NCBI GenBank assembly: GCA_028689015.1
Contig: JAQTXC010000005.1
Location: forward strand, 3,107 to 67,106
Reading direction: 5' to 3'
DNA length: 64,000 nt
Source of the DNA: Dechloromonas sp.
Lineage (GTDB): Bacteria > Pseudomonadota > Gammaproteobacteria > Burkholderiales > Rhodocyclaceae
Position numbers and translations under genes: made by a program. Under the pieces are notes generated by a model. The model was not told where the DNA came from and made no database searches. It saw only the letters and a list, made by a program, of their open reading frames with translations. Below are positions 183 to 10,613 of this stretch, piece after piece. The first letter of the stretch is position 1. Every line of letters begins with the position of its first letter.

Positions 183-887
183 ATGTTCACGGATTCCCTG
201 AATCTCCCGGCAAGCCAGCCCGAATGGCGGCGCAGCGGGCGCTTCTTCCTGATCGCCCTGGGCCTGCATGGCATGGCACTGGCTTATCCCCTGCATCAAG
301 CGCTGCACAGGGAGGCCGAAGCCTTGCCCGTGATGCAGGTGCAATTGGGCAGCGCCAAGTCGGTACCCACGCCGCTACCGCTTTCTGCAGTACCGCCCCC
401 CCAAAAGCAGACTGCCAGGCCGCAAGCTACACCCCGGAAAACGGTCATGCAGGTCGCAAAATCCCCGACCCAAACAGCAACGCCCCCCCTCGTTCCAAGT
501 CCTGTTCCGGTTGAAAATACCGTGCCAACGGCCGCCGTAACCACTACAGCACCGCTTGCCAGTGCCCCCATCAAGGCTGCCCCAGCCGCCGGCAACGCAC
601 CACTCAGTCCGGTACGCTTTGATGTGGCCTACCTGCAGAATCCAGCGCCGGCATATCCGGCAATCTCCCGCAGGCTGGGCGAGGAAGGGCGCGTACTGTT
701 GCGCGTCAAAGTCAGCGCAGAGGGCGCGCCGCTTGCGGTCAACCTGGAAAAAAGCAGCAATTTCGCCCGTCTGGACGACTCTGCCATTCAGGTCGTCAAC
801 CGCTGGCGCTTCGTCCCCGCCAAACGCGGCGACGAAGCCATCGAAGCCTCGGTCATTGTGCCGATCGTGTTTCGGCTGGAAGGGTAG
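183..887 (+). CDS. tonB: TonB-family energy transducer
   Basis: N-terminal TM anchor with LHG motif, Pro-rich linker, TonB C-terminal domain (PAYPAISRRLGEEGRVLLRVKVSAEG...WRFVPA). Confidence 0.9.
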   Translation: MFTDSLNLPASQPEWRRSGRFFLIALGLHGMALAYPLHQALHREAEALPVMQVQLGSAKSVPTPLPLSAVPPPQKQTARPQATPRKTVMQVAKSPTQTATPPLVPSPVPVENTVPTAAVTTTAPLASAPIKAAPAAGNAPLSPVRFDVAYLQNPAPAYPAISRRLGEEGRVLLRVKVSAEGAPLAVNLEKSSNFARLDDSAIQVVNRWRFVPAKRGDEAIEASVIVPIVFRLEG

Positions 888-2556
888 GGTTCTCAAGCGT
901 CACATCGGCCAGTCGAATGGAATTGGAAAAAGCCTCAAGCAAACTCCGCGACTCCCTCAATTGATTCTCAAAGTGAGTGGTACCCTCTTTTGGGTTAAGG
1001 TTTATGACAGTTTCCTGCATCTTTTTATAGAGTTCTGAACCTCCGATTTCCAAGGCATCCAGTTGCAGTCCGTTGATAGCGCGTTTCCGGTTGCGAATTG
1101 TTTCGATGTCCGCCTGAATGGCGTCATCGTACATATCAAAAACCTCCTTAAGCCGCTCTTCAAGGCGCTGCATAACATCGCCATTCTGATTAATCTGGAC
1201 AAAATGCTCCATCAGCGGCCGGCCACGGTGGGCAACGCTTCTGCGCTGGGTTGAACTGTAGGCACTAATCCCCGCAACAGGAATGTCCTCATACTCTAGC
1301 ACGCTCTCCACTTCGTCCATGATGCACTCTAGGTCGTCCTCTGGCCTAAGATCTGCTTTGTTGAGCACCACATAGACTGAGCGATGCTCAACGCCAATCT
1401 CCTGAATGAAATCCAAGTCCGAGTCCGGGATGGTCCCGTTTGCGTCAAGGCCAATGAGCCAAATTATGGCGTCGGATTGTTGCGCGAATTGCACCGCGGT
1501 TTGTTTGTCGCTCTGGCTGTATTCGCCTGCTGTGGCCGGAGGGTTATAGCCGGGGGTGTCAATGAAACAAATGTTGCTGAAATAAGCGGGGTCCATCTGA
1601 ATGCCCACGCACATGAAGGGCATGAGGCTTTTGAGATCAAAGCTGAAAGAGTTAATGAATGCGTGAGAAATGCTTTTGTAGAACCCCACGTCCAAATCAA
1701 TGTGACCACCATTGGCGGAGTAACCGCGAATCAAGCGCTCATTGGTTGCTAGGACATAACTCGGGATCGCCGTGACGGGCTGGAGACCGACGGCCAGGCG
1801 AATTTCACGATCAAGAATGAAGCTGTTAATGAACTCAGATTTACCACTACTGAAACCGCCGACAATGCCCACGATAGTTCGCTTAAATACGTCCGGAAAG
1901 CCTACAAGTAGGCCTAATTCCTGTTCGATTGACTGCAGCATCAGTAGCGCCTTTGCTTCGGCGGCCAAGGAAGACTCTGATTCCGCAAAGACCATGTAGT
2001 CGTTCGCCAGCACTTGCCGGAAACGGGCTAGCCCCATATTTTCTGGGGGGTGTGCGGCTAGCAGTTGTGAAATGAGTTGGAAACGAGTCCAGGTGTCGCC
2101 GTGTCGCTGCTCCAGTGCTTTTAGCTCAGCCGCCAGTTTTTGTGAGGTCTCCAACTCATTGGCGAGGGCCAATTCGGCGGCTTTTCGCTCTTGGACGACT
2201 TGGTTATGGTTTGTTGCCAATGTGTCAAAGCGTATTCGCGCCTGCTCACAGTCATGTTGGTGCTGCGTCTGGGATTGATTCAACAACAGCTGCAACCCCT
2301 GAAAGTCATGCCGCGATTGCGCAAGTTCGGCGTTGGTAGCGGCCACGCGTTCGGTAAGGTGCAAGTGCACTTGGGTCAGGGCCTGAAACTGCTCCTGCGT
2401 GTTCTGGTGCGCTCGTACTAGAGCCTCGTGCCGAGTGTCCGCAGTGCGAAGATCCTCAACAATAGCGTCGTGTAGCGACTTTCGTCGCCAGACAAACAGT
2501 CGCGTCAGTTTTACAAGGTGTATAAATAGGGAGGGAGGGAGCAATTCGGACATCAT
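853..2556 (-). CDS. Dynamin-like GTPase 3 (N-terminal coiled coil, central GTPase domain)
   Basis: G1 GGFSSGKS, G2 PVT, G3 DTPG, G4 NKAD; long heptad-rich N-terminal region; ATGA overlap with upstream gene. Confidence 0.85.
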   Translation of the reverse strand: MMSELLPPSLFIHLVKLTRLFVWRRKSLHDAIVEDLRTADTRHEALVRAHQNTQEQFQALTQVHLHLTERVAATNAELAQSRHDFQGLQLLLNQSQTQHQHDCEQARIRFDTLATNHNQVVQERKAAELALANELETSQKLAAELKALEQRHGDTWTRFQLISQLLAAHPPENMGLARFRQVLANDYMVFAESESSLAAEAKALLMLQSIEQELGLLVGFPDVFKRTIVGIVGGFSSGKSEFINSFILDREIRLAVGLQPVTAIPSYVLATNERLIRGYSANGGHIDLDVGFYKSISHAFINSFSFDLKSLMPFMCVGIQMDPAYFSNICFIDTPGYNPPATAGEYSQSDKQTAVQFAQQSDAIIWLIGLDANGTIPDSDLDFIQEIGVEHRSVYVVLNKADLRPEDDLECIMDEVESVLEYEDIPVAGISAYSSTQRRSVAHRGRPLMEHFVQINQNGDVMQRLEERLKEVFDMYDDAIQADIETIRNRKRAINGLQLDALEIGGSELYKKMQETVINLNPKEGTTHFENQLRESRSLLEAFSNSIRLADVTLENPTLPAETRSAQ

Positions 2557-4790
2557 GCGGCCTCCAGATCCTTGGCCATCCGTTGCAAGCGGTCAAGTGT
2601 CAGCAGTGCGTTATCGACCAGCCCTTCCAATTGCTCGATCCGAGTCTGCATGTCTTTGAAGAAATCGTCCCCAATAGAGCGTGGCAAACCATTGGCTATG
2701 TCATCCGTAAAGTCACGAATTTGGCGAGTAGCCTGCCCTTTGAGGTTCTGGAGAAGACCCTTGGCATCGTCCAAAAAATTGCGCGCCTCGCAATTTAGTA
2801 AATAACTTCCGTTACCCTTCAATTTGTGCAGCTCACTGCTGTCTAATTCAAATTGCGGGATTTCAATTTTGGAAACAAGGCCATTAACGGAGCGAATAAC
2901 GAGTGCTGGGTCGACATCGTCGCCAAGGTGCCGCCTAGCGGCCTGCGTGATCTCTTTTATGAGTTGCTGAAGAAACCGGTGCGTCAAGTCACTGCTCGAG
3001 TACCTCAAGGAGTTGGCTAACCCATTTGCGAAGTCATCGAGGCCGGCACGAACTGGGTTCAAGTACAGTTTGAACTCCCTATATGTGTATTCTTCCGTGC
3101 CACCTCCCCAGCCCCAATTTGCACCCTTGGCAACGATACTGTCACGGACACGGCTACGAGTTTCTCTTATCTCTTCTGAAGCACTTTTGAATGAATCCTC
3201 TGTTTCGTCGTAAGCGCTTTTCAGATCGGCGGTAAGCGTCTTTTTAAGTTGATCTCGAAATTCTGGTACCCGTTCAGAGATAACTCCATCAAGGTCATGA
3301 GTTGCCACCGCGATCAAGCTATCGAGCTTCCGTCGCTGAGCCTTTAACTCATCGAGATCGGCATTCTTAACTTCCTGGAACTTGGCTTGAGTAAACTTCA
3401 GGAGGTCGGCGCGAAATGCCTCCAGTGCTGACGACTTTGCCCGTACCAATTCTGCGCGTCGTTGCTCGATTATGTGGTTCTTTTGCTCTCTGACCTTTCC
3501 CAGTACCCCACGTAGCGCGGCAGTGTTGGCAAGTAAGTCCAGGTTGGCGCGACAACGGTCAGCGTTGTCCGGTGTAAAAAAATCCTGGTAGTGAGCCTGC
3601 AGGTTTTCCCAGGCCTTGCGCTCACCGCTGTCCCATCCATCCTGTTGGTCAAAACGAACCGACAAGCTGTGACACACACCGGACGTGTGTAGAACCTTTC
3701 CGGTGCCACGCAGGATCAGTCCGTCAAAAGTGCTTCCTATTTCCGGATGCTGGCTCTTCAGACGCTGCAGCGTGTCAACCATGTGCGAGCTGAGGGTCTG
3801 AGTGATTTTTTCCAGCGAAGCTTGCAGGGTGGGTTGGCGGGTGTCGCTGCCATAAAGCTGGTTATCAACCTGGCTGGCGATTAGGACGAGCTCCTGGACG
3901 CCCTCCTTTTGAGTGATCCGGCTCATAACCTCAAGGTCTTGTTCACTGAGGAACTGTCCTGCAGGGCTGACAATAAACACCACGTCACAATCCTTGAGCA
4001 GATTGGTAGTCCGCTCCTCACGGGACTGCACAGGGTCGTTCAGGCCCGGGGTATCGATAATCCGGACATTACGAAGCGATTCTAAGGGCAGGAAAATATC
4101 AACGCTCTTGGTTAGAGGCATGTAGCTGCCTTCTGCACCAACATATTCGAGCAACTGGCTGGCTAGCGAGTTTGCGTCTTCCGCCTGGAGCTGACCCAGA
4201 TTGCCGAGGTCCGTAAGGTCGACCCCAGATGCATCAATGCGTTGCCATTGATCATGCGCAGCGGCTAGCGATTGCTCTGCCTGCACGGCACGCAGCGCGT
4301 TTTTCTCGACCTGGTTCCAGAATTCATCGTCTTCACATGTCTGGCCATTTTGCTGTCGGCGTCGGCGAAGAACATCTACGGCCTTGGCCCGCTCTTCAAC
4401 AAGTCTCGCCTCGAAGCGTTTGGCGTCCTTCTGGATATTTTCCAGATCTGCAGTGCTGTAGAACTGGACTTGAGCGCCGAATGAATCCGCATGGGTGAGA
4501 GTGGTTAGGGCTGCGGTCATAGGCGTGGCAGCCCGGGGAAGAATATTGTGACCGTCGAACACCAGAGCATTGAGCAAAGACGATTTGCCCGCCTTAACTC
4601 GGCCTACCACACCGATCTGCAGCAGCCGGTTTTCTTCGGTCAGCTTCTCGAACGAACGGGCCAATTCCTCGGGGCGCCCAATGGCATGTTTCCTGATCCA
4701 GTGAGCAATATCTTTTTCCAGTTCCTGGTGATATGTCTCCATCCAATGGTGGAGCCGTTGGTTCAGATCAAGGACGTCCTTTGCATTCAT
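2553..4790 (-). CDS. Dynamin-like GTPase 2
   Basis: G1 GRVKAGKS, G2 PMT, G3 DTPG, atypical G4 SQVD; long helical C-terminal stalk; 745 aa. Confidence 0.85.
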   Translation of the reverse strand: MNAKDVLDLNQRLHHWMETYHQELEKDIAHWIRKHAIGRPEELARSFEKLTEENRLLQIGVVGRVKAGKSSLLNALVFDGHNILPRAATPMTAALTTLTHADSFGAQVQFYSTADLENIQKDAKRFEARLVEERAKAVDVLRRRRQQNGQTCEDDEFWNQVEKNALRAVQAEQSLAAAHDQWQRIDASGVDLTDLGNLGQLQAEDANSLASQLLEYVGAEGSYMPLTKSVDIFLPLESLRNVRIIDTPGLNDPVQSREERTTNLLKDCDVVFIVSPAGQFLSEQDLEVMSRITQKEGVQELVLIASQVDNQLYGSDTRQPTLQASLEKITQTLSSHMVDTLQRLKSQHPEIGSTFDGLILRGTGKVLHTSGVCHSLSVRFDQQDGWDSGERKAWENLQAHYQDFFTPDNADRCRANLDLLANTAALRGVLGKVREQKNHIIEQRRAELVRAKSSALEAFRADLLKFTQAKFQEVKNADLDELKAQRRKLDSLIAVATHDLDGVISERVPEFRDQLKKTLTADLKSAYDETEDSFKSASEEIRETRSRVRDSIVAKGANWGWGGGTEEYTYREFKLYLNPVRAGLDDFANGLANSLRYSSSDLTHRFLQQLIKEITQAARRHLGDDVDPALVIRSVNGLVSKIEIPQFELDSSELHKLKGNGSYLLNCEARNFLDDAKGLLQNLKGQATRQIRDFTDDIANGLPRSIGDDFFKDMQTRIEQLEGLVDNALLTLDRLQRMAKDLEAA

Positions 4791-6547
4791 GGCTGAGTCT
4801 GCTTGTAGAGGGTTTCCTTGGCCAGGCCTTGAAGCTCTACTCTGACAGAAAGGAGGTGGGCAACTTGCTGCTCTTTCGCCTGGCCATCTTGGTGTCGGTT
4901 GGACATTAATTCATCGATGATTCGTTGTTTTTCGCCGATCTCGCGCTCGAACTCTGCACTAACTTGCGCGACCAGTTCATCCAGTTGCTCGTTCAATAGG
5001 GTTGGCAGCTTGTACCTCAATTCACGCTTGACTGCGGGAATGATCTCGTTCATTACTTTCTGTCGGAGTTGGTCTCTCTGGCGACCTTGATTGATCATGG
5101 CCAAGATGTCCGGTAAAAAGATAATGGCCAGTTCGATCAGGGGATTGACCACGGATGTGGTTACGGCCAAGATCGTTGTCAAGCCTTGGTAAGTCACTTT
5201 GGGCAGTGGCTGCCCTTCTTTCCAGTTGTTATCTTTCTTCAGTTTTTCCAACTCTCGCGAGTTGCGCTCGGCCAACGAACCGCTCCAATGCCCAACGGTT
5301 TCCACTGTTTTATGTAGGGTACGATTGATCTTGTCCGACATATCGCCCAGCCAGTTCTGGTCATTATTGAACGCTCCCATAGCGTTGCCCAGATTACCCA
5401 GCGACTGGGTGAAGTCGGACACGACCGAGCGACTTATGAACTCCATCTGGTCCTTTATGGTGCGAGTCATCGCGCTCCGGACTACCTCCGAGATGATCCG
5501 CGAGAAACCCTCCTGGTTGCTCGACAAGCCTGCATTTACTAGCTCTTCACGGACATTCTCTAGTTCGCGCCCGGAGTCAGAAACACAGCGTTCCACCATC
5601 CGGTCCAGTTGCTGGTTGCGTAGGTCAGCAAGGATATCGTCCCGCTTACGTTCAACTTTGCGGATGCCGTCCGCTAGTTCGCTCAAAGCATATTCATTCT
5701 CCGCTTGGTTCTTCTTTAATGAGGTTAACGCCAGATTAATTTGGCTGATAAGCGAGTGGGTGAGGTCCTTCAGGCGATCCTCGAACAGTTGCCGAATGAT
5801 GCGTTCAGGCTCCAGCCTCGTCAGCAAATCGGCCAGCCGTACCCCATCGTCAAGACCAACGCGCGTTAAGGGGTGGACGTTGGCGAAGGCAGACTTGATT
5901 TGCTCGCTGATCAGATCCGACACTTCATTTATCTGCTCTTCGGAGCGGAGGTTTACCTTATTCAACAGGAAAGTGAAATCACGCCCGTAGGTCTGCAAGT
6001 CATCCAGCTGACGCATCATTGATTGGGTGATGTTGCCGTCTTCGATGCTGGTGACTACGATAAAGTGCACGCCGCGTGGAAGGTAATAGGCAATAGCCTT
6101 GTTGTGATTGGCAAGCGACGACCCAAAACCGGGCATATCCACCAACACCAGAGAAGTTAAAGCCTCAAGATGCGGGTTATCCAGGTACAACTGCAGGTGG
6201 GTAAACTCGCGTGCCCTAGCCTTGATGTTTGCTAGCCCGCTCACGTTAAGACGCTCGCTACTACCATCTGAGCGCAGAGCGAGGAGGTGCGGGTCGCTGC
6301 AGTAGCGTAGTTCGGTCGCTAGTTCCGTTTCTGGGGTGAGGCCAACACCCAAGACATCTACCCCTAGGAATGCATTGAGCAAACTGCTCTTACCAGCACT
6401 GAAGGCACCAATGACGGGTACCAACAATTCGATGTGGCTTATGTCTTCCTTTAGCAGCTGTAGTTCATTGGTTTGGAGAGGAGTTTCGCCGATCAGTTTA
6501 ATCACTGCTTCGAGGTAACTCAGGTACGCGCGTTGGGTATTCAACAT
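4787..6547 (-). CDS. Dynamin-like GTPase 1 with C-terminal hydrophobic membrane segment
   Basis: G1 GAFSAGKS, G2 PET, G3 DMPG, G4 NKVN; helical stalk and hydrophobic GLTTILAVTTSVVNPLIELAIIFLPDILAMI; AAGGA RBS upstream. Confidence 0.85.
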   Translation of the reverse strand: MLNTQRAYLSYLEAVIKLIGETPLQTNELQLLKEDISHIELLVPVIGAFSAGKSSLLNAFLGVDVLGVGLTPETELATELRYCSDPHLLALRSDGSSERLNVSGLANIKARAREFTHLQLYLDNPHLEALTSLVLVDMPGFGSSLANHNKAIAYYLPRGVHFIVVTSIEDGNITQSMMRQLDDLQTYGRDFTFLLNKVNLRSEEQINEVSDLISEQIKSAFANVHPLTRVGLDDGVRLADLLTRLEPERIIRQLFEDRLKDLTHSLISQINLALTSLKKNQAENEYALSELADGIRKVERKRDDILADLRNQQLDRMVERCVSDSGRELENVREELVNAGLSSNQEGFSRIISEVVRSAMTRTIKDQMEFISRSVVSDFTQSLGNLGNAMGAFNNDQNWLGDMSDKINRTLHKTVETVGHWSGSLAERNSRELEKLKKDNNWKEGQPLPKVTYQGLTTILAVTTSVVNPLIELAIIFLPDILAMINQGRQRDQLRQKVMNEIIPAVKRELRYKLPTLLNEQLDELVAQVSAEFEREIGEKQRIIDELMSNRHQDGQAKEQQVAHLLSVRVELQGLAKETLYKQTQP

Positions 6548-6947
6548 GGGAAAGATTCCTTGTGTTTGTCGGTTACTAATTTTTTATAAAATATTGTCAT
6601 TTGCATGAGGCCGTCCTAGCAACAACTTAATCCGGGGACTAGGTCCAGGCATATCTCAAGCGCCAGGCTTCCCGGCACCTTGTGCATTCAGAGGTCGAAA
6701 TGAAACGGTAGGTGCTTGGTGCTTTGCACCCAATTCAAAAGTTGCGAGCCCAAATTGGAGAAGTCCTTCTTTCGCCAACCAAAGTGCCCATTTGCCGCTA
6801 AATGACATCTTTAAGCAGCCGTTTGTAAGAGGGACCCTTCGGTGGATAAGATGAGTATCGCACTATCAGCTTTTCCTGATGCGGATGTAATCTGGCAATG
6901 TAAATCATGTCCAGCGTCACCTAAAATTTATCCAAATTAGCCGTTCT

Positions 6948-7133
6948 TCAACTAAACACAATACGCAACATATCAAGGGGTGTAGGCAATCGCCTCAATA
7001 GCTGTTTACAACCGCATTTCTCGCATTGCTTAACGATGTCTCCCGGCAGCAGTACATCACTCATCGGCGCGACAGTCTTTTTCCACCCGCAAGACTGACA
7101 GACATAGGTCATCGGTTTTGGTCGAATCGGCAT
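6948..7133 (-). CDS. Small Zn-ribbon protein (61 aa)
   Basis: CQSC...CEKC pairs; GGAG RBS 6 nt before ATG at 7133; starts 24 bp after the WYL stop. Confidence 0.75.
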   Translation of the reverse strand: MPIRPKPMTYVCQSCGWKKTVAPMSDVLLPGDIVKQCEKCGCKQLLRRLPTPLDMLRIVFS

Positions 7134-7157: not shown

Positions 7158-8153
7158 TCACACATCGTAATTTCGGCACATCGCTTTAACGATCTGCGCA
7201 ATTTCATTCCGCAACTCCGCCGGCCCTTCAACGATCACCTGATCCCCAAACCCCAGCAGCCATACCCGCAGCGCCTTGGTATCCGCAACCGTTGCGGTGA
7301 TCGTTACGCTGCCATTCGGATGCTCATCAATTTTTTGATCAGGGGCCAAAAGCCTTTCAGTCACGCTGGGCGCGGCGCCCTGACTGAAGGTGGCTACCAG
7401 CCTGATCGGCCCCCCTTCGCCCACCTGCCAGCCAAAAGCGCCCCCCTGGATGTACGCCTCCAGATCGAACCCTGCTAGCGGCACGATGTCCGTTTCCTGC
7501 AACTCGGCTGTGGCAATTCGATGCAGGGCCAACTGCCGGATATCGGTGTAGCTACCGATGGTTGCCACCAGATAAATGATCTGGTTTCTCACCACCAAGC
7601 CCAGCAGGTTGATGACATAGTTTTTGACTTGCGATCCCGTGCGCGGGACGTAATCGATACGCAGTTGCTTGTTAGTCAGCAAGGCTCGCGAGACACGTTC
7701 CTGAATGGCTTCATCAACGAGGGGAGGCATCAGCGCTTGCCCGGCGGCGAGGACGCGCACCTTGTTACGCCATGCCCCCAAACCACCATCCTGCTGATCG
7801 AGCACTCTCTTGGCCGTATCGAACCAGGGAGAAAGTTGCCCGAGGCTGGCCGCTGGCAGCAGGGCATGGAGGTGTTTCTCCGCCAGATGGAACACCAGCG
7901 CGGTCAACGGCTCCAGCGTAGGTAAATCCAGCTGCGGCGCATCAGGCCGCCAACTCCACCCTTGAGGCTTTGAATCGTCGGAACTCAAGGGCAAGGCCCG
8001 GGAGAGGTTGACCAGATCCCGCTGCACCGTGCGCAAATTTACCTGGAAGCCGGAGGCCTCGAGACGCTCCAGCAAGGATTTTGCGTCAATGCGTTTGGGT
8101 GGCCGCGGAATTCCCCGAAGCATGCACCACTGGCGTAACAAGGCATCACTCAT
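7158..8153 (-). CDS. WYL-domain transcriptional regulator (wHTH-WYL-WCX; BrxR/CapW-like architecture)
   Basis: N-terminal HTH RTVQRDL; WYL-like core (LRIDY...IIYLVA...LALHRI); WCX-like end (LRVWLLGFGDQVIVEGPAELR). Confidence 0.9.
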   Translation of the reverse strand: MSDALLRQWCMLRGIPRPPKRIDAKSLLERLEASGFQVNLRTVQRDLVNLSRALPLSSDDSKPQGWSWRPDAPQLDLPTLEPLTALVFHLAEKHLHALLPAASLGQLSPWFDTAKRVLDQQDGGLGAWRNKVRVLAAGQALMPPLVDEAIQERVSRALLTNKQLRIDYVPRTGSQVKNYVINLLGLVVRNQIIYLVATIGSYTDIRQLALHRIATAELQETDIVPLAGFDLEAYIQGGAFGWQVGEGGPIRLVATFSQGAAPSVTERLLAPDQKIDEHPNGSVTITATVADTKALRVWLLGFGDQVIVEGPAELRNEIAQIVKAMCRNYDV

Positions 8154-8567: not shown

Positions 8568-10202
8568 TTACCCCAGGCGCGCCAACAAACACGCGGCAGC
8601 CGTTTGGTGCATGACCAACACCAGCTTCATCGAACTACGCGTTGCCCCGACAAACAGTTTGCGCAAAGCCTTGTCGTCCAGCACGTCACAATCTATTTCG
8701 GTCAGGATGATCGCCGGTGCCGCCTGACCCTTGAAGCGATAGACCGAGTCCACCAGGACATCGCCATCGGTGTACACCGGCTGGCCCAGTAAGTCGTATT
8801 CGCCGGTGAAATGGCGCAATGAGGTTGTTCCGAGTTTGTCGAGGGTGGTCAGGTGCGACTGCTCCCGACCGTGATAGCTGATGATGGCCAAATCATGTTT
8901 CTTGAAACCGGCGGCATAGCATAGCCGGATGCCTTCCTTGACCCGGGCAAACATGCCCGCGGTATCCTCGTAATCCAGAATTTCAATGTCCTCGCCAATA
9001 AAAGGAGAGGCCGCTTCGATGTCCACATGGCCCGGCATCAAGCGCTTGAGCAAATCGACCACGGGCCGGGGACTGCGATAATTGGTGTTGGCCCGCATCG
9101 TGATAAAACCCGGCAAGGCAATGGGCGTGCGGCCATAGAGGTTCTGCACCGGGTCCTCCAGCCAGACAATGCGAGCCTCCGTTCGCGCATGACGGAAAAT
9201 GAAGTCACGCCATTTTTCGGAAATATCCTGCCCCTCATCCACGATCAGGGTATCGAACAGGAAGCTGGCACCGATTGGTAACTCAGCCGCCCGTTTCTGA
9301 ATTTTATCGAACGCATCGGGTTGACCGTAGTAAGGCACTTCTCCGGCATGGCGGATACGTTGCTCGCAAAGCTGATGGAAGGTCACTGCCAAACCGCCAC
9401 GAGGCGCGATCCGGCTGAAATGGTCGGCCAGTGGCCGGTTGTAACAAACATAGAGCGGGCGCTTGCCAGCCGCCAAACTAGCCCGAAACTCAGCCAGGGC
9501 CAGTTGCGTCTTCCCCGACCCGGCAGTGCCCGTGACCCGCAAGCGAAATGGCTCGAACTCCAAGCGTCTTGCCCAATGTGCCAAGCCACCGGAAATTCGG
9601 GTCACCAAGGCCTTGGCCTGCCCCATCAGCGCGCTGACATCCGGCTCAAGCTGGATCAGGTCGCGCAAGAATGCGTGCACCTTTGCCGTTGCCGGGGTTT
9701 CCTCGCGCAGCGGAAGCAGTTTCTCGACAATTTTGCACAATTGCCCACGTCGACCGGCGTCAACAATCCGTTCAGGCACCAGCCCAGCCGTTTCCGGTTG
9801 CTTGACGGCGTAATCCGGGCAATAGAGCAGGGCATCCGTGTGAATCAGGGGAATGTCACCCCGCGTGGCGAGCTTGCCTCGCAGATTGCTGACCATGCGG
9901 GAAATCTGCACCGCGACATTTTTTGATTTGCGAGGATATTGCTTTACCAGACCCTCTGGCGTTTCCTCCAGAAATCCACATTTCTGCTCGATCAGCAGCA
10001 AGTCCCCCGCGCAATTCACGACAGCAAAATCAATTTCCCCATAAATCGCGTGCTGTCCATCCATGCCTGTCCAGTGCACGCCGTGATACACGCTGTAGTC
10101 ATCTGGCAGTCCCTCTGCCAGGATTTCAAGCGTCTCAATTTCGCGCTTCGCTGCACCTGTCACTGCGAGTTCACGCCAACCATCGGGAATGATGCGGGCC
10201 AT
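8568..10202 (-). CDS. NERD nuclease fused to SF1 (UvrD-like) helicase/ATPase
   Basis: NERD motif EID...LLIEQK; Walker A GTAGSGKT; Walker B LIVDEGQD; motifs EDPVQNLY, NYRS, RFKG, FVGATRS. Confidence 0.85.
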   Translation of the reverse strand: MARIIPDGWRELAVTGAAKREIETLEILAEGLPDDYSVYHGVHWTGMDGQHAIYGEIDFAVVNCAGDLLLIEQKCGFLEETPEGLVKQYPRKSKNVAVQISRMVSNLRGKLATRGDIPLIHTDALLYCPDYAVKQPETAGLVPERIVDAGRRGQLCKIVEKLLPLREETPATAKVHAFLRDLIQLEPDVSALMGQAKALVTRISGGLAHWARRLEFEPFRLRVTGTAGSGKTQLALAEFRASLAAGKRPLYVCYNRPLADHFSRIAPRGGLAVTFHQLCEQRIRHAGEVPYYGQPDAFDKIQKRAAELPIGASFLFDTLIVDEGQDISEKWRDFIFRHARTEARIVWLEDPVQNLYGRTPIALPGFITMRANTNYRSPRPVVDLLKRLMPGHVDIEAASPFIGEDIEILDYEDTAGMFARVKEGIRLCYAAGFKKHDLAIISYHGREQSHLTTLDKLGTTSLRHFTGEYDLLGQPVYTDGDVLVDSVYRFKGQAAPAIILTEIDCDVLDDKALRKLFVGATRSSMKLVLVMHQTAAACLLARLG

Positions 10203-10261
10203 AAGCCTTCCTGAATTATGAGGAAAGCATCGAGCTTAATGCATTCATCAAGCCGCGACCA

Positions 10262-10548
10262 GACGTGACGACGGGGACCGAAGTCCCCGCCGGCTATCTT
10301 TGGTAACAAGGCTCTAGCAGCCCCGGCTAACCGTTTTTAGGCGGCAATAGCGAATTGCTCATCATTGGCAATTATGGATTTGCTTCATTAACGTCGATCG
10401 CCTGACGAGTTGCCTGCGCACCTTTGTCCGCCCTGTCGAAACCAGTACACCCCCAACCAAACACACTGCAGTCAATGCCCTTGGGTGGAGGTGAGGGGAA
10501 TCGAACCCCTGTCCAGAACGCCTCCAGATTGCTGGAATTACAACCATG
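10262..10548 (-). ncRNA. ssrA: Circularly permuted (two-piece) tmRNA gene
   Basis: Minus-strand order: acceptor piece ending T-arm AGGGG-TTCGATT-CCCCT plus CACCTCCA (10486); about 31-nt intervening segment; 5' acceptor strand GGGGGTG (10454) giving a G3:U70 pair; tag ORF ANDEQFAIAA* (10369-10337); terminal cUUCGg hairpin. Outer ends approximate. Confidence 0.95.
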
Positions 10549-10554
10549 CTTTCT

Positions 10555-10583
10555 ATTATGGGGGCGACGGTCGCATTGTTCAA
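10555..10583 (-). promoter_or_regulatory. Sigma70 promoter of ssrA
   Basis: TTGAAC(10583-10578)-N17-CATAAT(10560-10555), just upstream of the acceptor piece. Confidence 0.7.
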
Positions 10584-10613
10584 GACATCACCGTCGGTCC
10601 CAGGCTTCGCGGT

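What the first reader, a model, noticed from the sequence alone, without database searches (positions are those of the whole stretch)
853..6547. Three full GTPase-domain dynamin-like genes coupled by ATGA overlaps
Seen: all three have G1-G3 motifs, and both junctions (4787-4790, 2553-2556) are ATGA overlaps, which suggests stoichiometric co-translation. Established: studied bacterial DLP systems are mostly pairs or fusions (DynA, Campylobacter DLP1/2), and in E. coli LeoABC the LeoB/LeoC genes form one split DLP. From memory, DLP3 resembles Helicobacter dynamin-like GTPases (ELxLLxxFPxxF...GGFSxGKS...DTPGxNP); this is unverified.
Basis: partly seen in the sequence, partly recalled or inferred. 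Interest (0 to 1): 0.75.

Follow-up and report, generated by a model that had tools for sequence, protein, structure and literature searches.

The report
Conserved three-dynamin GTPase operon
Three different dynamin-like GTPase genes sit head-to-tail in one tightly coupled operon that recurs in the same order in many bacterial phyla (including Helicobacter pylori), often beside a WYL-type regulator on islands and plasmids, and no catalogue or paper that could be searched describes it as a system.

Summary
Three minus-strand ORFs (DLP1 4787-6547, DLP2 2553-4790, DLP3 853-2556) all pass Pfam Dynamin_N. Both junctions are ATGA overlaps.

The trio is a unit, not a local curiosity. The same three genes, in the same order and mostly overlapping or a few bases apart, occur in about 70 of 80 related loci from at least 10 phyla and on plasmids. 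G1, the switch-1 Thr and G3 are invariant in all three families.

The three proteins differ:
- DLP1 carries the only hydrophobic paddle.
- DLP2 is a full-length dynamin-like protein with a helical insert in its GTPase domain.
- DLP3 is a trunk-less "mini-mitofusin" fold with an N-terminal helix of variable length.

It is not Eleos/LeoABC. Leo HMM hits are weak and partial, and the LeoA structure is never hit. The closest solved relatives are the Campylobacter DLP1/DLP2 pair.

An HTH-WYL-WCX regulator and a small zinc-ribbon protein recur next to the trio. Here the island abuts tmRNA. Orthologues in H. pylori are co-transcribed.

Most likely this is a three-subunit membrane-acting GTPase machine carried as mobile cargo, probably for defence. 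The defence role is inferred, not shown. I rate it a new variant of a known kind.

The parts
4787..6547 (-). DLP1, 586 aa. Dynamin-like GTPase with G1 at residue 47, G3 at 137 and G4 NKVN at 196. It has the only strongly hydrophobic segment of the trio (residues 456-488, with conserved Pro469 and FLP 477-479), which is the likely membrane paddle or hairpin.
   Evidence: The closest solved relative is Cj-DLP2 5owv_C, E 1.1e-10.
2553..4790 (-). DLP2, 745 aa. Full-length dynamin-like GTPase with G1 at 63, G3 at 246 and G4 SQVD at 306. It has a helical insert at about 113-217 inside the GTPase domain, a long stalk helix (423-536) and a beta tip (538-576) with conserved W561 and G563-G564. No hydrophobic segment.
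   Evidence: AF2 pLDDT is 83.4. Best Foldseek matches are SynDLP, BDLP, Cj-DLP1 and IniA. Profile against PDB: Cj-DLP1 5owv_A, E 1.7e-17.
853..2556 (-). DLP3, 567 aa. It starts with a conserved N-terminal basic-aromatic motif (LVKLTRLFVWRRK) and a single long helix (25-167). Then come the GTPase domain (G1 at 233, G3 at 333, NKAD at 399) and a C-terminal helical hairpin (461-555). It has no trunk and no paddle. It is a paralogue of DLP1.
   Evidence: hhalign DLP1~DLP3, E 2.4e-34. AF2 pLDDT is 86.4. Best Foldseek matches are truncated mitofusin-1 constructs. The N-terminal extension varies from 81 to 572 aa.
4787..4790 (-). ATGA overlap of the DLP1 stop and the DLP2 start.
2553..2556 (-). ATGA overlap of the DLP2 stop and the DLP3 start. 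A GGAGG sits 4 nt upstream of the ATG.
6548..6947 (-). 400-nt non-coding stretch upstream of DLP1. It is the probable promoter and operator region and has an AT-rich palindrome at 6578-6595. No promoter was established.
6948..7133 (-). Small zinc-ribbon protein, 61 aa (CxxC...CxxC), a candidate accessory component. Homologues lie beside the trio in 25 of 80 loci.
   Evidence: No curated family reaches its cut-off.
7158..8153 (-). WYL-WCX domain protein, 331 aa, on the same strand upstream of the trio and the likely regulator. HTH-WYL-WCX regulators are the most frequent conserved neighbour of the trio in other loci.
   Evidence: WYL 1.7e-11, WCX 2.8e-17, PADLOC WYL 2.9e-27. Recurrence is shown.
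8568..10202 (-). NERD plus UvrD-like helicase, 544 aa. A neighbouring gene on the same island, and a possible separate defence candidate. It recurs near the trio in several loci.
10266..10596 (-). Betaproteobacterial tmRNA gene (ssrA). Its 3' end marks the island boundary.
   Evidence: Rfam beta_tmRNA, 327.9 bits. ARAGORN places it at 10246-10575.

Best explanation
The three genes encode a three-subunit, heterotypic dynamin-like GTPase machine that is inherited and moved as one cassette.

Shown:
- All three are dynamin-family GTPases with conserved G1, switch-1 Thr, G3 and G4-like motifs.
- Gene order and translational coupling are conserved across phyla.
- The three proteins co-evolve.
- Orthologues in H. 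pylori lie on one transcript-sized RNA contig.

Inferred:
- DLP1, the only subunit with a hydrophobic paddle, anchors the complex on the cytoplasmic membrane.
- DLP2, a long soluble DLP with a GTPase-domain insert and a conserved Trp/Gly tip, is the bridging or oligomerising subunit.
- DLP3 is a duplicate of DLP1 that lost trunk and paddle and gained a coiled-coil spacer of variable length. Its spacer ends in a conserved basic-aromatic N-terminal helix. It would dock through that helix (as the N-terminal helix of Cj-DLP2 docks on Cj-DLP1) or touch the membrane, and would contribute a third GTPase head for nucleotide-driven G-domain pairing.
- The outcome would be membrane tethering, sealing or remodelling.

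The cassette is carried on islands, plasmids and ICE-like regions, is often under an HTH-WYL-WCX regulator, and often comes with a small zinc-ribbon protein. I therefore think its most likely role is protection against phage or other invaders at the membrane, as reported for Eleos and DynA. That last step is the weakest.
For: Domain and motif evidence:
-.
- G1, G3 and the switch-1 Thr are invariant in 70/70, 70/70 and 76/76 orthologues.

Synteny and coupling:
-.
- Taxa include Pseudomonas, Burkholderia, Neisseria, Campylobacterales, H. pylori, Fibrobacter, Latescibacterota, Spirochaetes, Desulfobacteraceae and Fusobacteriaceae.
- Deferribacterota is added.

Co-evolution and family size:
- Spearman rho of pairwise identities is 0.83, 0.61 and 0.59.
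- About 800 clusters at 50% identity match the DLP3 profile at E<=1e-30.

Architecture:
- (folds).
- (only DLP1 is hydrophobic).
- (DLP1~DLP3, E 2.4e-34).
- (variable spacer, conserved N-terminal motif).

Solved relatives:
- The Cj-DLP1/2 pair is the closest.
- Its docking-helix mechanism is described in PMC6104087.

Expression:
- One 5,879-nt contig from an H. pylori RNA-seq run spans L078 5797-11632, that is all three genes.
- Three further runs also cover them.

Context:
- WYL regulators are the only recurrent neighbour.
- ZnR is present in 25 loci.
- The window's island lies at tmRNA, with a NERD/UvrD helicase.
- On a P. aeruginosa megaplasmid, WYL plus trio sit next to an EH-signature protein, a DEAD helicase and integrases.
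- BrxL, IetA, ZacA, RM methyltransferases and transposases occur among the immediate neighbours.
- The trio is absent from phage collections.

Precedent:
- The two-gene dynamin system (Eleos) and DynA protect against phages.
- tmRNA-adjacent Pseudomonas islands carry dynamin-type defence cargo.
Against: - No experiment on any member was found. No complex, lipid binding or GTPase activity has been measured.
- The defence context is moderate, not overwhelming. Only the two genes on each side were surveyed in about 38 loci, and many neighbours are housekeeping genes (shikimate kinase, DHQ synthase, catalase, MdoG).
- In H. pylori the DLP1 orthologue cluster has 2010 members and is transcribed in ordinary culture. 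That looks more like a resident function than a sporadic defence gene.
- Relatives have been linked to vesicle release (LeoABC) and host colonisation (Cj0411).
- In 57 of 70 orthologues DLP1 has Asn in place of the G4 guanine-specificity Asp, so it may not be a standard GTPase.
- A few loci lack one member (L069 has DLP1+DLP3 only; L068 has DLP3 without an upstream DLP1/2), so the trio is not obligatory.
- The RNA evidence comes from contigs, which may contain DNA carry-over.
Confidence: 0.55

Rival explanations
1. A resident membrane-maintenance or vesicle-forming system. The trio repairs or reshapes the cytoplasmic membrane under envelope stress, or promotes vesicle release, as proposed for DynA, IniA/IniC and LeoABC. 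Phage is not its specific target, and mobility is incidental.
For: H. pylori carries the trio almost universally (a 2010-member cluster) and transcribes it in culture. Many flanks are housekeeping genes. LeoA/B deletion halves vesicle cargo (PMC4159319). cj0411 is a colonisation factor. A Pseudomonas DLP mutant is impaired in fungal exudate (PMC6344628; it is not known whether this is the same family).
Against: The distribution is patchy and crosses phyla. The trio occurs on plasmids, ICE-like regions and a tmRNA island with lower GC. WYL regulators recur, and defence genes and transposases are neighbours. The genes are often frameshifted in H. pylori strains (338-340 aa DLP1 in HUP-B14 and J99), which is typical of dispensable genes.
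Confidence: 0.3
2. It is simply an Eleos (LeoA plus LeoBC) defence system with one extra, redundant dynamin gene, and so already catalogued.
For: PADLOC gives weak hits of DLP1 to LeoA (1e-12) and of DLP2 to LeoBC (1.4e-8). The same weak hits appear for trios from H. pylori, Leclercia and Fibrobacter. Eleos is also a DLP operon found in defence islands.
Against: The hits cover only part of the models; DLP2 matches positions 42-102 of 601. DLP3 has no PADLOC hit. The gene order differs: Eleos is LeoBC then LeoA. LeoA's solved structure (the paper; PDB 4AUR, code from memory) is not hit even at E<=1 by the DLP1 or DLP2 profiles, whereas Cj-DLP1/2, BDLP and IniA are. DLP3 is conserved and co-evolves with the other two, so it is not a redundant add-on.
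Confidence: 0.1
3. An assembly of paralogues without joint function: recent tandem duplicates or decaying copies that merely happen to overlap.
For: DLP1 and DLP3 are paralogues. Decayed versions exist, for example E. coli IncF plasmids with DLP2 in pieces.
Against: The three families are each only about 35% identical on average among orthologues, yet they keep order, coupling and invariant catalytic motifs across phyla.
Confidence: 0.03

Closest known systems
Campylobacter jejuni Cj-DLP1/Cj-DLP2 heterotypic pair (Cj0411/Cj0412; PDB 5OWV, 5OXF)
   Same: These are the closest solved relatives by sequence: DLP2 to Cj-DLP1 at 1.7e-17, DLP1 and DLP3 to Cj-DLP2 at about 1e-10. The order 'long DLP, then shorter DLP' is kept in DLP2-DLP3. 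It is a side-by-side operon of unlike DLPs. An N-terminal helix of the shorter partner is used for docking in Cj, and DLP3 has a conserved N-terminal helix.
   Different: There are three genes, not two. DLP2 lacks the 119-aa N-terminal assembly domain of Cj-DLP1 (its G1 is at residue 63, and the alignment starts at Cj residue 145) and instead has a helical insert inside the GTPase domain. DLP3 lacks a trunk and adds a long coiled coil. A WYL regulator and a zinc-ribbon protein are associated.
Eleos (LeoA + LeoBC) anti-phage system and E. coli ETEC LeoABC
   Same: An operon of dynamin-like GTPases found in defence or pathogenicity islands. P-loop mutations in either protein abolish defence in Eleos. 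There are weak HMM similarities.
   Different: Eleos is two DLPs; LeoABC is the same two with one split. Order and lengths differ. HMM matches are partial. LeoA is not found by profile search. There is no counterpart of DLP3.
Mitofusin / Fzo1 minimal GTPase-HD1 constructs and BDLP1 of Nostoc
   Same: The DLP3 model superposes best on truncated mitofusin-1 (GTPase plus first helical bundle), Foldseek E 2e-14. DLP2 matches SynDLP, BDLP and IniA over its full length.
   Different: Mitofusin constructs are engineered truncations. DLP3 is naturally trunk-less and carries an N-terminal helix of 81-572 residues.
WYL-type regulators of defence systems (BrxR, CapW) and PafBC
   Same: WYL and WCX domains in the window's regulator, with an added HTH in the relatives scanned, encoded directly upstream on the same strand.
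   Different: Only a weak sequence match to PafC (E 0.0016). The ligand and operator are unknown. What BrxR and CapW do is from my own knowledge, not tested here.

Membership tests
Dynamin superfamily / bacterial dynamin-like proteins | Large GTPase domain that matches Dynamin_N and has G1, G2 (switch-1 Thr), G3 and G4 | tested here: met
   All three score above the Pfam cut-off. G1, Thr and G3 are invariant in 70-76 orthologues each. G4 is NKAD in DLP3, SQxD in DLP2 and [S/N]Kx[N/D] in DLP1.
Dynamin superfamily / bacterial dynamin-like proteins | Helical neck (BSE/HD1) and trunk (stalk/HD2) following the GTPase | tested here: inconclusive
   DLP2: met, with a full-length match to SynDLP, BDLP and Cj-DLP1. 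DLP3: neck only, no trunk. DLP1: not modelled; the sequence aligns to the stalk part of the LeoA HMM (positions 293-531).
Dynamin superfamily / bacterial dynamin-like proteins | Lipid-binding paddle or membrane anchor at the trunk tip | tested here: inconclusive
   DLP1 has a conserved hydrophobic segment at 456-488, KD19 1.98. DLP2 and DLP3 have none. DLP2 instead has a conserved W/GG beta tip. Actual lipid binding was not tested.
Dynamin superfamily / bacterial dynamin-like proteins | Nucleotide-dependent oligomerisation and membrane remodelling | not testable with these tools
   Needs biochemistry.
Eleos (LeoA + LeoBC) defence system | Two-gene operon, LeoBC followed by LeoA, each matching its profile over most of its length | tested here: not met
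   There are three genes. DLP1, the first gene, is the LeoA-like one (45.9 bits, profile positions 293-531 of 559). DLP2 hits LeoBC positions 42-102 of 601 only. DLP3 has no hit. LeoA is absent from profile-against-PDB hits at E<=1.
Eleos (LeoA + LeoBC) defence system | Anti-phage activity that depends on both P-loops | not testable with these tools
   Experimental. Reported for the Bacillus vietnamensis system.
Cj-DLP1/DLP2-type heterotypic pair | Adjacent unlike DLP genes with detectable homology to Cj-DLP1 and Cj-DLP2 | tested here: met
Cj-DLP1/DLP2-type heterotypic pair | N-terminal assembly domain on the long partner that receives helix 1 of the short partner | tested here: not met
   DLP2 has only about 55 residues before G1, and the alignments start at Cj-DLP1 residue 145. 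DLP3 does have a conserved N-terminal helix, but its receptor is unknown.
Defence-island cargo (guilt by association) | Frequent co-location with known defence genes, and carriage on mobile elements | tested here: inconclusive
   WYL regulators account for at least 10 of 150 immediate neighbours. IetA, BrxL, ZacA and RM methyltransferases each occur once or twice. There are also a megaplasmid island, a plasmid, an ICE-like region and the tmRNA island here. Only the two genes on each side were surveyed and no background was computed.

The most novel reading that the evidence does not exclude
This is an uncatalogued, horizontally mobile immune module of up to five genes: a WYL regulator, a zinc-ribbon protein and three distinct dynamin-like NTPases. 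A membrane-anchored DLP (DLP1), whose G4 Asp-to-Asn change may shift it away from strict GTP use, a bridging DLP (DLP2), and a naturally trunk-less 'mini-mitofusin' (DLP3) on a coiled-coil spacer of tunable length would assemble into a three-headed machine. That machine would seal, tether or sequester membrane at the site of phage attack.
Probability: 0.35. Interest if true: 0.8.

Novelty: new variant of a known kind. Interest (0 to 1): 0.62.

Why it matters
Studied bacterial dynamin-like proteins are single proteins, pairs or fusions, and how unlike subunits cooperate is an open question shared with mitofusins and OPA1. A conserved three-subunit version offers a tractable natural model of division of labour among dynamin heads: one subunit keeps the membrane paddle, one is a natural 'mini-mitofusin', and one carries a GTPase-domain insert. 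If it is a defence system, it adds a second dynamin-based family beside Eleos. That family is present in clinically relevant hosts (P. aeruginosa megaplasmids, H. pylori, Aeromonas, Burkholderia), so it bears on phage-therapy host range.

Tried and rejected
- I looked for att-like direct repeats of the tmRNA 3' end bounding the island. None was found, and no integrase is present.
- The promoter and terminator scan is at chance level, so no internal signals were established.
- No RNA data exist for the window's own organism. It occurs only in landfill and wastewater metagenomic DNA runs, so expression was tested in H. pylori orthologues instead.
- DLP3 has no match in the GenBank phage collection or in IMG/VR.
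- The Leclercia trio DNA has no match in 5,426 complete E. coli genomes. E. coli IncF plasmids hold only a decayed relative.
- I considered that the 'dynamins' on the SBW25 tmRNA island I55 were the same family. They are a pair of 769 and 750 aa, so they are a different system.
- I considered that the Ferrovum trio shares the WYL-ZnR pair. Its upstream 340-aa and 63-aa genes are neither.
- The H. pylori island paper that mentions 'three DLP' proteins is descriptive. It concerns an accessory island in five strains and defines no system.
- The zinc-ribbon protein matches no curated family.

Full report
**What is there.**
- The region holds three consecutive minus-strand ORFs at exactly the coordinates given: DLP1 4787-6547 (586 aa), DLP2 2553-4790 (745 aa) and DLP3 853-2556 (567 aa).
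- Both junctions are ATGA stop/start overlaps. A GGAGG sits four bases before the DLP3 start.
- All three products exceed the Pfam Dynamin_N gathering score, at 58.5, 72.7 and 35.9 bits against 27.
- NCBIfam has no equivalog for any of them.
- Upstream on the same strand lie a 400-nt non-coding stretch, a 61-aa zinc-ribbon ORF (6948-7133), a WYL-WCX protein (7158-8153) and a NERD plus UvrD-like helicase (8568-10202).
- Next comes a betaproteobacterial tmRNA gene: 10266-10596 by Rfam at 327.9 bits, or 10246-10575 by ARAGORN.
- G+C is about 0.53 across 2-8 kb, against about 0.60 in the rest of the window.
- A TonB-like gene (183-887, +) converges on DLP3 and overlaps its poorly conserved tail by 35 nt.
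- The sequence comes from a landfill metagenome.
- So the trio sits on a roughly 9-kb island at the 3' end of ssrA. I found no integrase and no flanking repeats.

**The trio is a conserved unit.**
- A scan of one genome per species with DLP3 patterns gave 138 confirmed relatives, of which 80 loci were kept.
- tblastn with the window's proteins shows DLP1, DLP2 and DLP3 in that order in nearly every locus with enough flank.
- The taxa are Pseudomonas, Stenotrophomonas, Luteibacter, Marinobacter, Burkholderia, Neisseria, Pelistega, Thiothrix, Rahnella, Leclercia, Acinetobacter, many Campylobacterales, Helicobacter including H. pylori, Fibrobacter, Latescibacterota, Spirochaetes/Treponema, Desulfobacteraceae and Fusobacteriaceae.
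- It also lies on P. aeruginosa megaplasmids and on a Calditerrivibrio (Deferribacterota) plasmid.
- The DLP2/DLP3 junction overlaps in 55 of 77 loci. The DLP1/DLP2 junction is within 15 nt in 57 of 71.
- Exceptions carry insertions between DLP1 and DLP2: transposases, an EcsC-family gene in Neisseria/Pelistega, zinc-ribbon proteins in a Treponema, or a second DLP1 copy.
- Pairwise identities of the three proteins across 62 loci are correlated (Spearman 0.83, 0.61 and 0.59), so the genes travel together.
- A profile search of 1.84 billion representatives finds about 800 clusters at 50% identity with E<=1e-30 for DLP3.
- No member is in the phage collections.

**All three look catalytically competent, with one oddity.**
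- G1 (GxxxxGKS), the switch-1 Thr and G3 (DxPG) are invariant across 70, 70 and 76 orthologues respectively.
- G4 is canonical NKAD in DLP3 and SQxD in DLP2, where the Asp is invariant.
- In DLP1, G4 is [S/N]KxN. The Asp that reads the guanine base is Asn in 57 of 70 orthologues and Asp in 13.
- In Ras-type GTPases this change shifts specificity towards xanthine nucleotides. That is established knowledge and was not tested here, so DLP1 may not be a strict GTPase.

**The three proteins are different.**
- *Relationships:* Profile-profile comparison puts DLP1 and DLP3 closest (E 2.4e-34; DLP1 6-317 aligns with DLP3 185-528). DLP2 is more distant.
- *DLP1:* Only DLP1 has a strongly hydrophobic segment (456-488, Kyte-Doolittle 1.98) with conserved Pro469 and FLP. 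This is the expected place of a BDLP paddle.
- *DLP3:* The AlphaFold model is confident (pLDDT 86.4). It shows a short N-terminal helix, one helix from residue 25 to 167, the GTPase, and a C-terminal helical hairpin. Its best structural matches are the engineered 'mini' mitofusin-1 constructs (GTPase plus HD1), followed by EHD, IniA, BDLP and Cj-DLPs.
- DLP3 is therefore a natural trunk-less DLP. Its N-terminal extension ranges from 81 to 572 residues among orthologues. In most proteobacterial, campylobacterotal and several other lineages it begins with a conserved motif, L..L..F[FW].[FW][RK][RK]K.
- Fibrobacter and Latescibacterota versions instead have long C-terminal extensions.
- *DLP2:* The model (pLDDT 83.4) is a full-length DLP with a helical insert at about 113-217 inside the GTPase domain and a 114-residue stalk helix. 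Its beta-hairpin tip carries nearly invariant W561 and invariant G563-G564. It matches SynDLP, BDLP, Cj-DLP1 and IniA.

**Relation to known systems.**
- By sequence profile, the nearest solved proteins are the Campylobacter pair. DLP2 matches Cj-DLP1 at 1.7e-17. DLP1 and DLP3 match Cj-DLP2 at about 1e-10.
- The DLP2-DLP3 order therefore mirrors cj0411-cj0412, with DLP1 as an extra upstream paralogue that kept the paddle.
- In the Cj pair, the N-terminal helix of the shorter partner inserts into an N-terminal assembly domain of the longer one, and tetramerisation switches on GTPase and lipid binding (PMC6104087).
- DLP2 lacks that assembly domain but has its own insert, and DLP3 has a conserved N-terminal helix. 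A docking role is an inference.
[quoted passage not shown] LeoABC is the same with one gene split.
- PADLOC gives only weak, partial hits: DLP1 to LeoA 1e-12, DLP2 to LeoBC 1.4e-8 over 60 residues, DLP3 none. The same holds for trios from H. pylori, Leclercia and Fibrobacter.
- LeoA's solved structure is not hit at E<=1. The trio is therefore not Eleos.
- Nine literature searches found no paper that defines a three-DLP system.
- One comparative-genomics paper lists 'three DLP' proteins in an H. pylori accessory island without further analysis.
- Public annotation is uniformly 'dynamin family protein'.

**Context and likely role.**
- Flanks differ from locus to locus.
- The only recurrent neighbours are HTH-WYL-WCX regulators of two subfamilies, usually directly upstream on the same strand. 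They form 17 loci in the clustering and at least 10 of 150 immediate neighbours in the domain census.
- A homologue of the small zinc-ribbon protein lies beside the trio in 25 of 80 loci. It is either just upstream of DLP1 or just after DLP3, sometimes overlapping its stop. It belongs to no curated family.
- A NERD/UvrD-like helicase recurs in at least six loci.
- Other immediate neighbours include BrxL, IetA, ZacA, RM methyltransferases and transposases, but also ordinary metabolic genes.
- On a P. aeruginosa megaplasmid, WYL plus trio lie between an EH-signature protein with a DEAD helicase on one side and an IS30 and two integrases on the other. The EH-signature/DEAD pair is Zorya-like by my own knowledge.
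- In Ferrovum the trio sits among transposases and ICE-type genes.
- tmRNA-adjacent islands in Pseudomonas are known carriers of defence cargo, including a different dynamin pair.
- This pattern fits mobile defence cargo, and dynamin-based defence has precedent. The evidence here is still only association.
- Against it, the H. pylori DLP1 orthologue cluster has 2010 members. RNA-seq assemblies from several studies cover the whole trio, with one 5.9-kb contig from about 140 nt before DLP1 to about 290 nt after DLP3.
It also fits a resident membrane function.

**Verdict.**
- The best reading is a conserved, mobile, three-subunit dynamin-like machine with division of labour: anchor, bridge, and mini-DLP on a spacer. 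It is often accompanied by a WYL regulator and a zinc-ribbon protein.
- Its role is probably defence at the membrane, and possibly membrane maintenance.
- It is a new variant of a known kind: heterotypic bacterial DLP systems.
- The genes are common in databases, but the searched catalogues and papers hold no description of the system.

Noticed in passing
window 6948-7133 (-): A 61-aa zinc-ribbon protein (CxxC...CxxC). Homologues flank the dynamin trio in 25 of 80 related loci, either just upstream of DLP1 or just after DLP3, overlapping its stop in L029 and L069. No Pfam or NCBIfam family reaches its cut-off.
   Followed up: partly
window 8568-10202 (-): A NERD plus UvrD-like helicase next to the WYL gene. 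It hits the PADLOC models 'RTasNERD-Hel' (7e-14) and candidate 'C3a187 NERD+UvrD'. Homologues recur near the trio in L007, L020, L026, L037, L066 and L085. It may be a separate single-gene defence candidate or an accessory.
   Followed up: partly
window 5950-5961 (-), DLP1 residues 196-199: The DLP1 G4 motif is NKVN. Across 70 orthologues the guanine-specificity Asp is Asn in 57 and Asp in 13, which suggests altered nucleotide specificity.
   Followed up: partly
window 853-887: The convergent TonB_C gene (183-887, +) and DLP3 (853-2556, -) overlap by 35 nt. The last 10 residues of DLP3 are unconserved and modelled at low confidence, as if the island's edge lies right at the end of DLP3.
   Followed up: no
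window 10246-10596 (-): A betaproteobacterial tmRNA (tag peptide ANDEQFAIAA) lies directly beside the island. No integrase or att repeat was found, so the island may be a degenerate remnant.
   Followed up: partly
L074 5945-7590; J99 protein AAD06483.1: In H. pylori HUP-B14 and J99 the DLP1 orthologue is cut to 338-340 aa by a frameshift, while most strains have 548 aa. This could be strain-variable inactivation.
   Followed up: no
L039 6730-7587; L040 6540-7452: Neisseria and Pelistega loci carry an EcsC-family gene inserted between DLP1 and DLP2. A Treponema locus (L080 5728-7378) has two multi-zinc-ribbon proteins at the same place.
   Followed up: partly
L084 (E. coli IncF plasmid NZ_CP148424.1) 1848-9436: A decayed relative of the trio: DLP1-like gene intact, DLP2 in pieces, DLP3-like gene of 405 aa. 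It is followed by an 829-aa 'CFI-box-CTERM domain' protein.
   Followed up: partly
L056 4076-7619; L066 9773-12653: Some loci carry extra paralogues: two DLP1 copies in a Latescibacteria genome, and two DLP3-like genes in tandem in Undibacterium.
   Followed up: no
L014 12142-13191 and relatives (L009, L011, L015, L027, L061): In one Pseudomonas lineage an ADP-ribosylglycohydrolase gene sits just downstream of the trio on the opposite strand, beside the zinc-ribbon gene.
   Followed up: no
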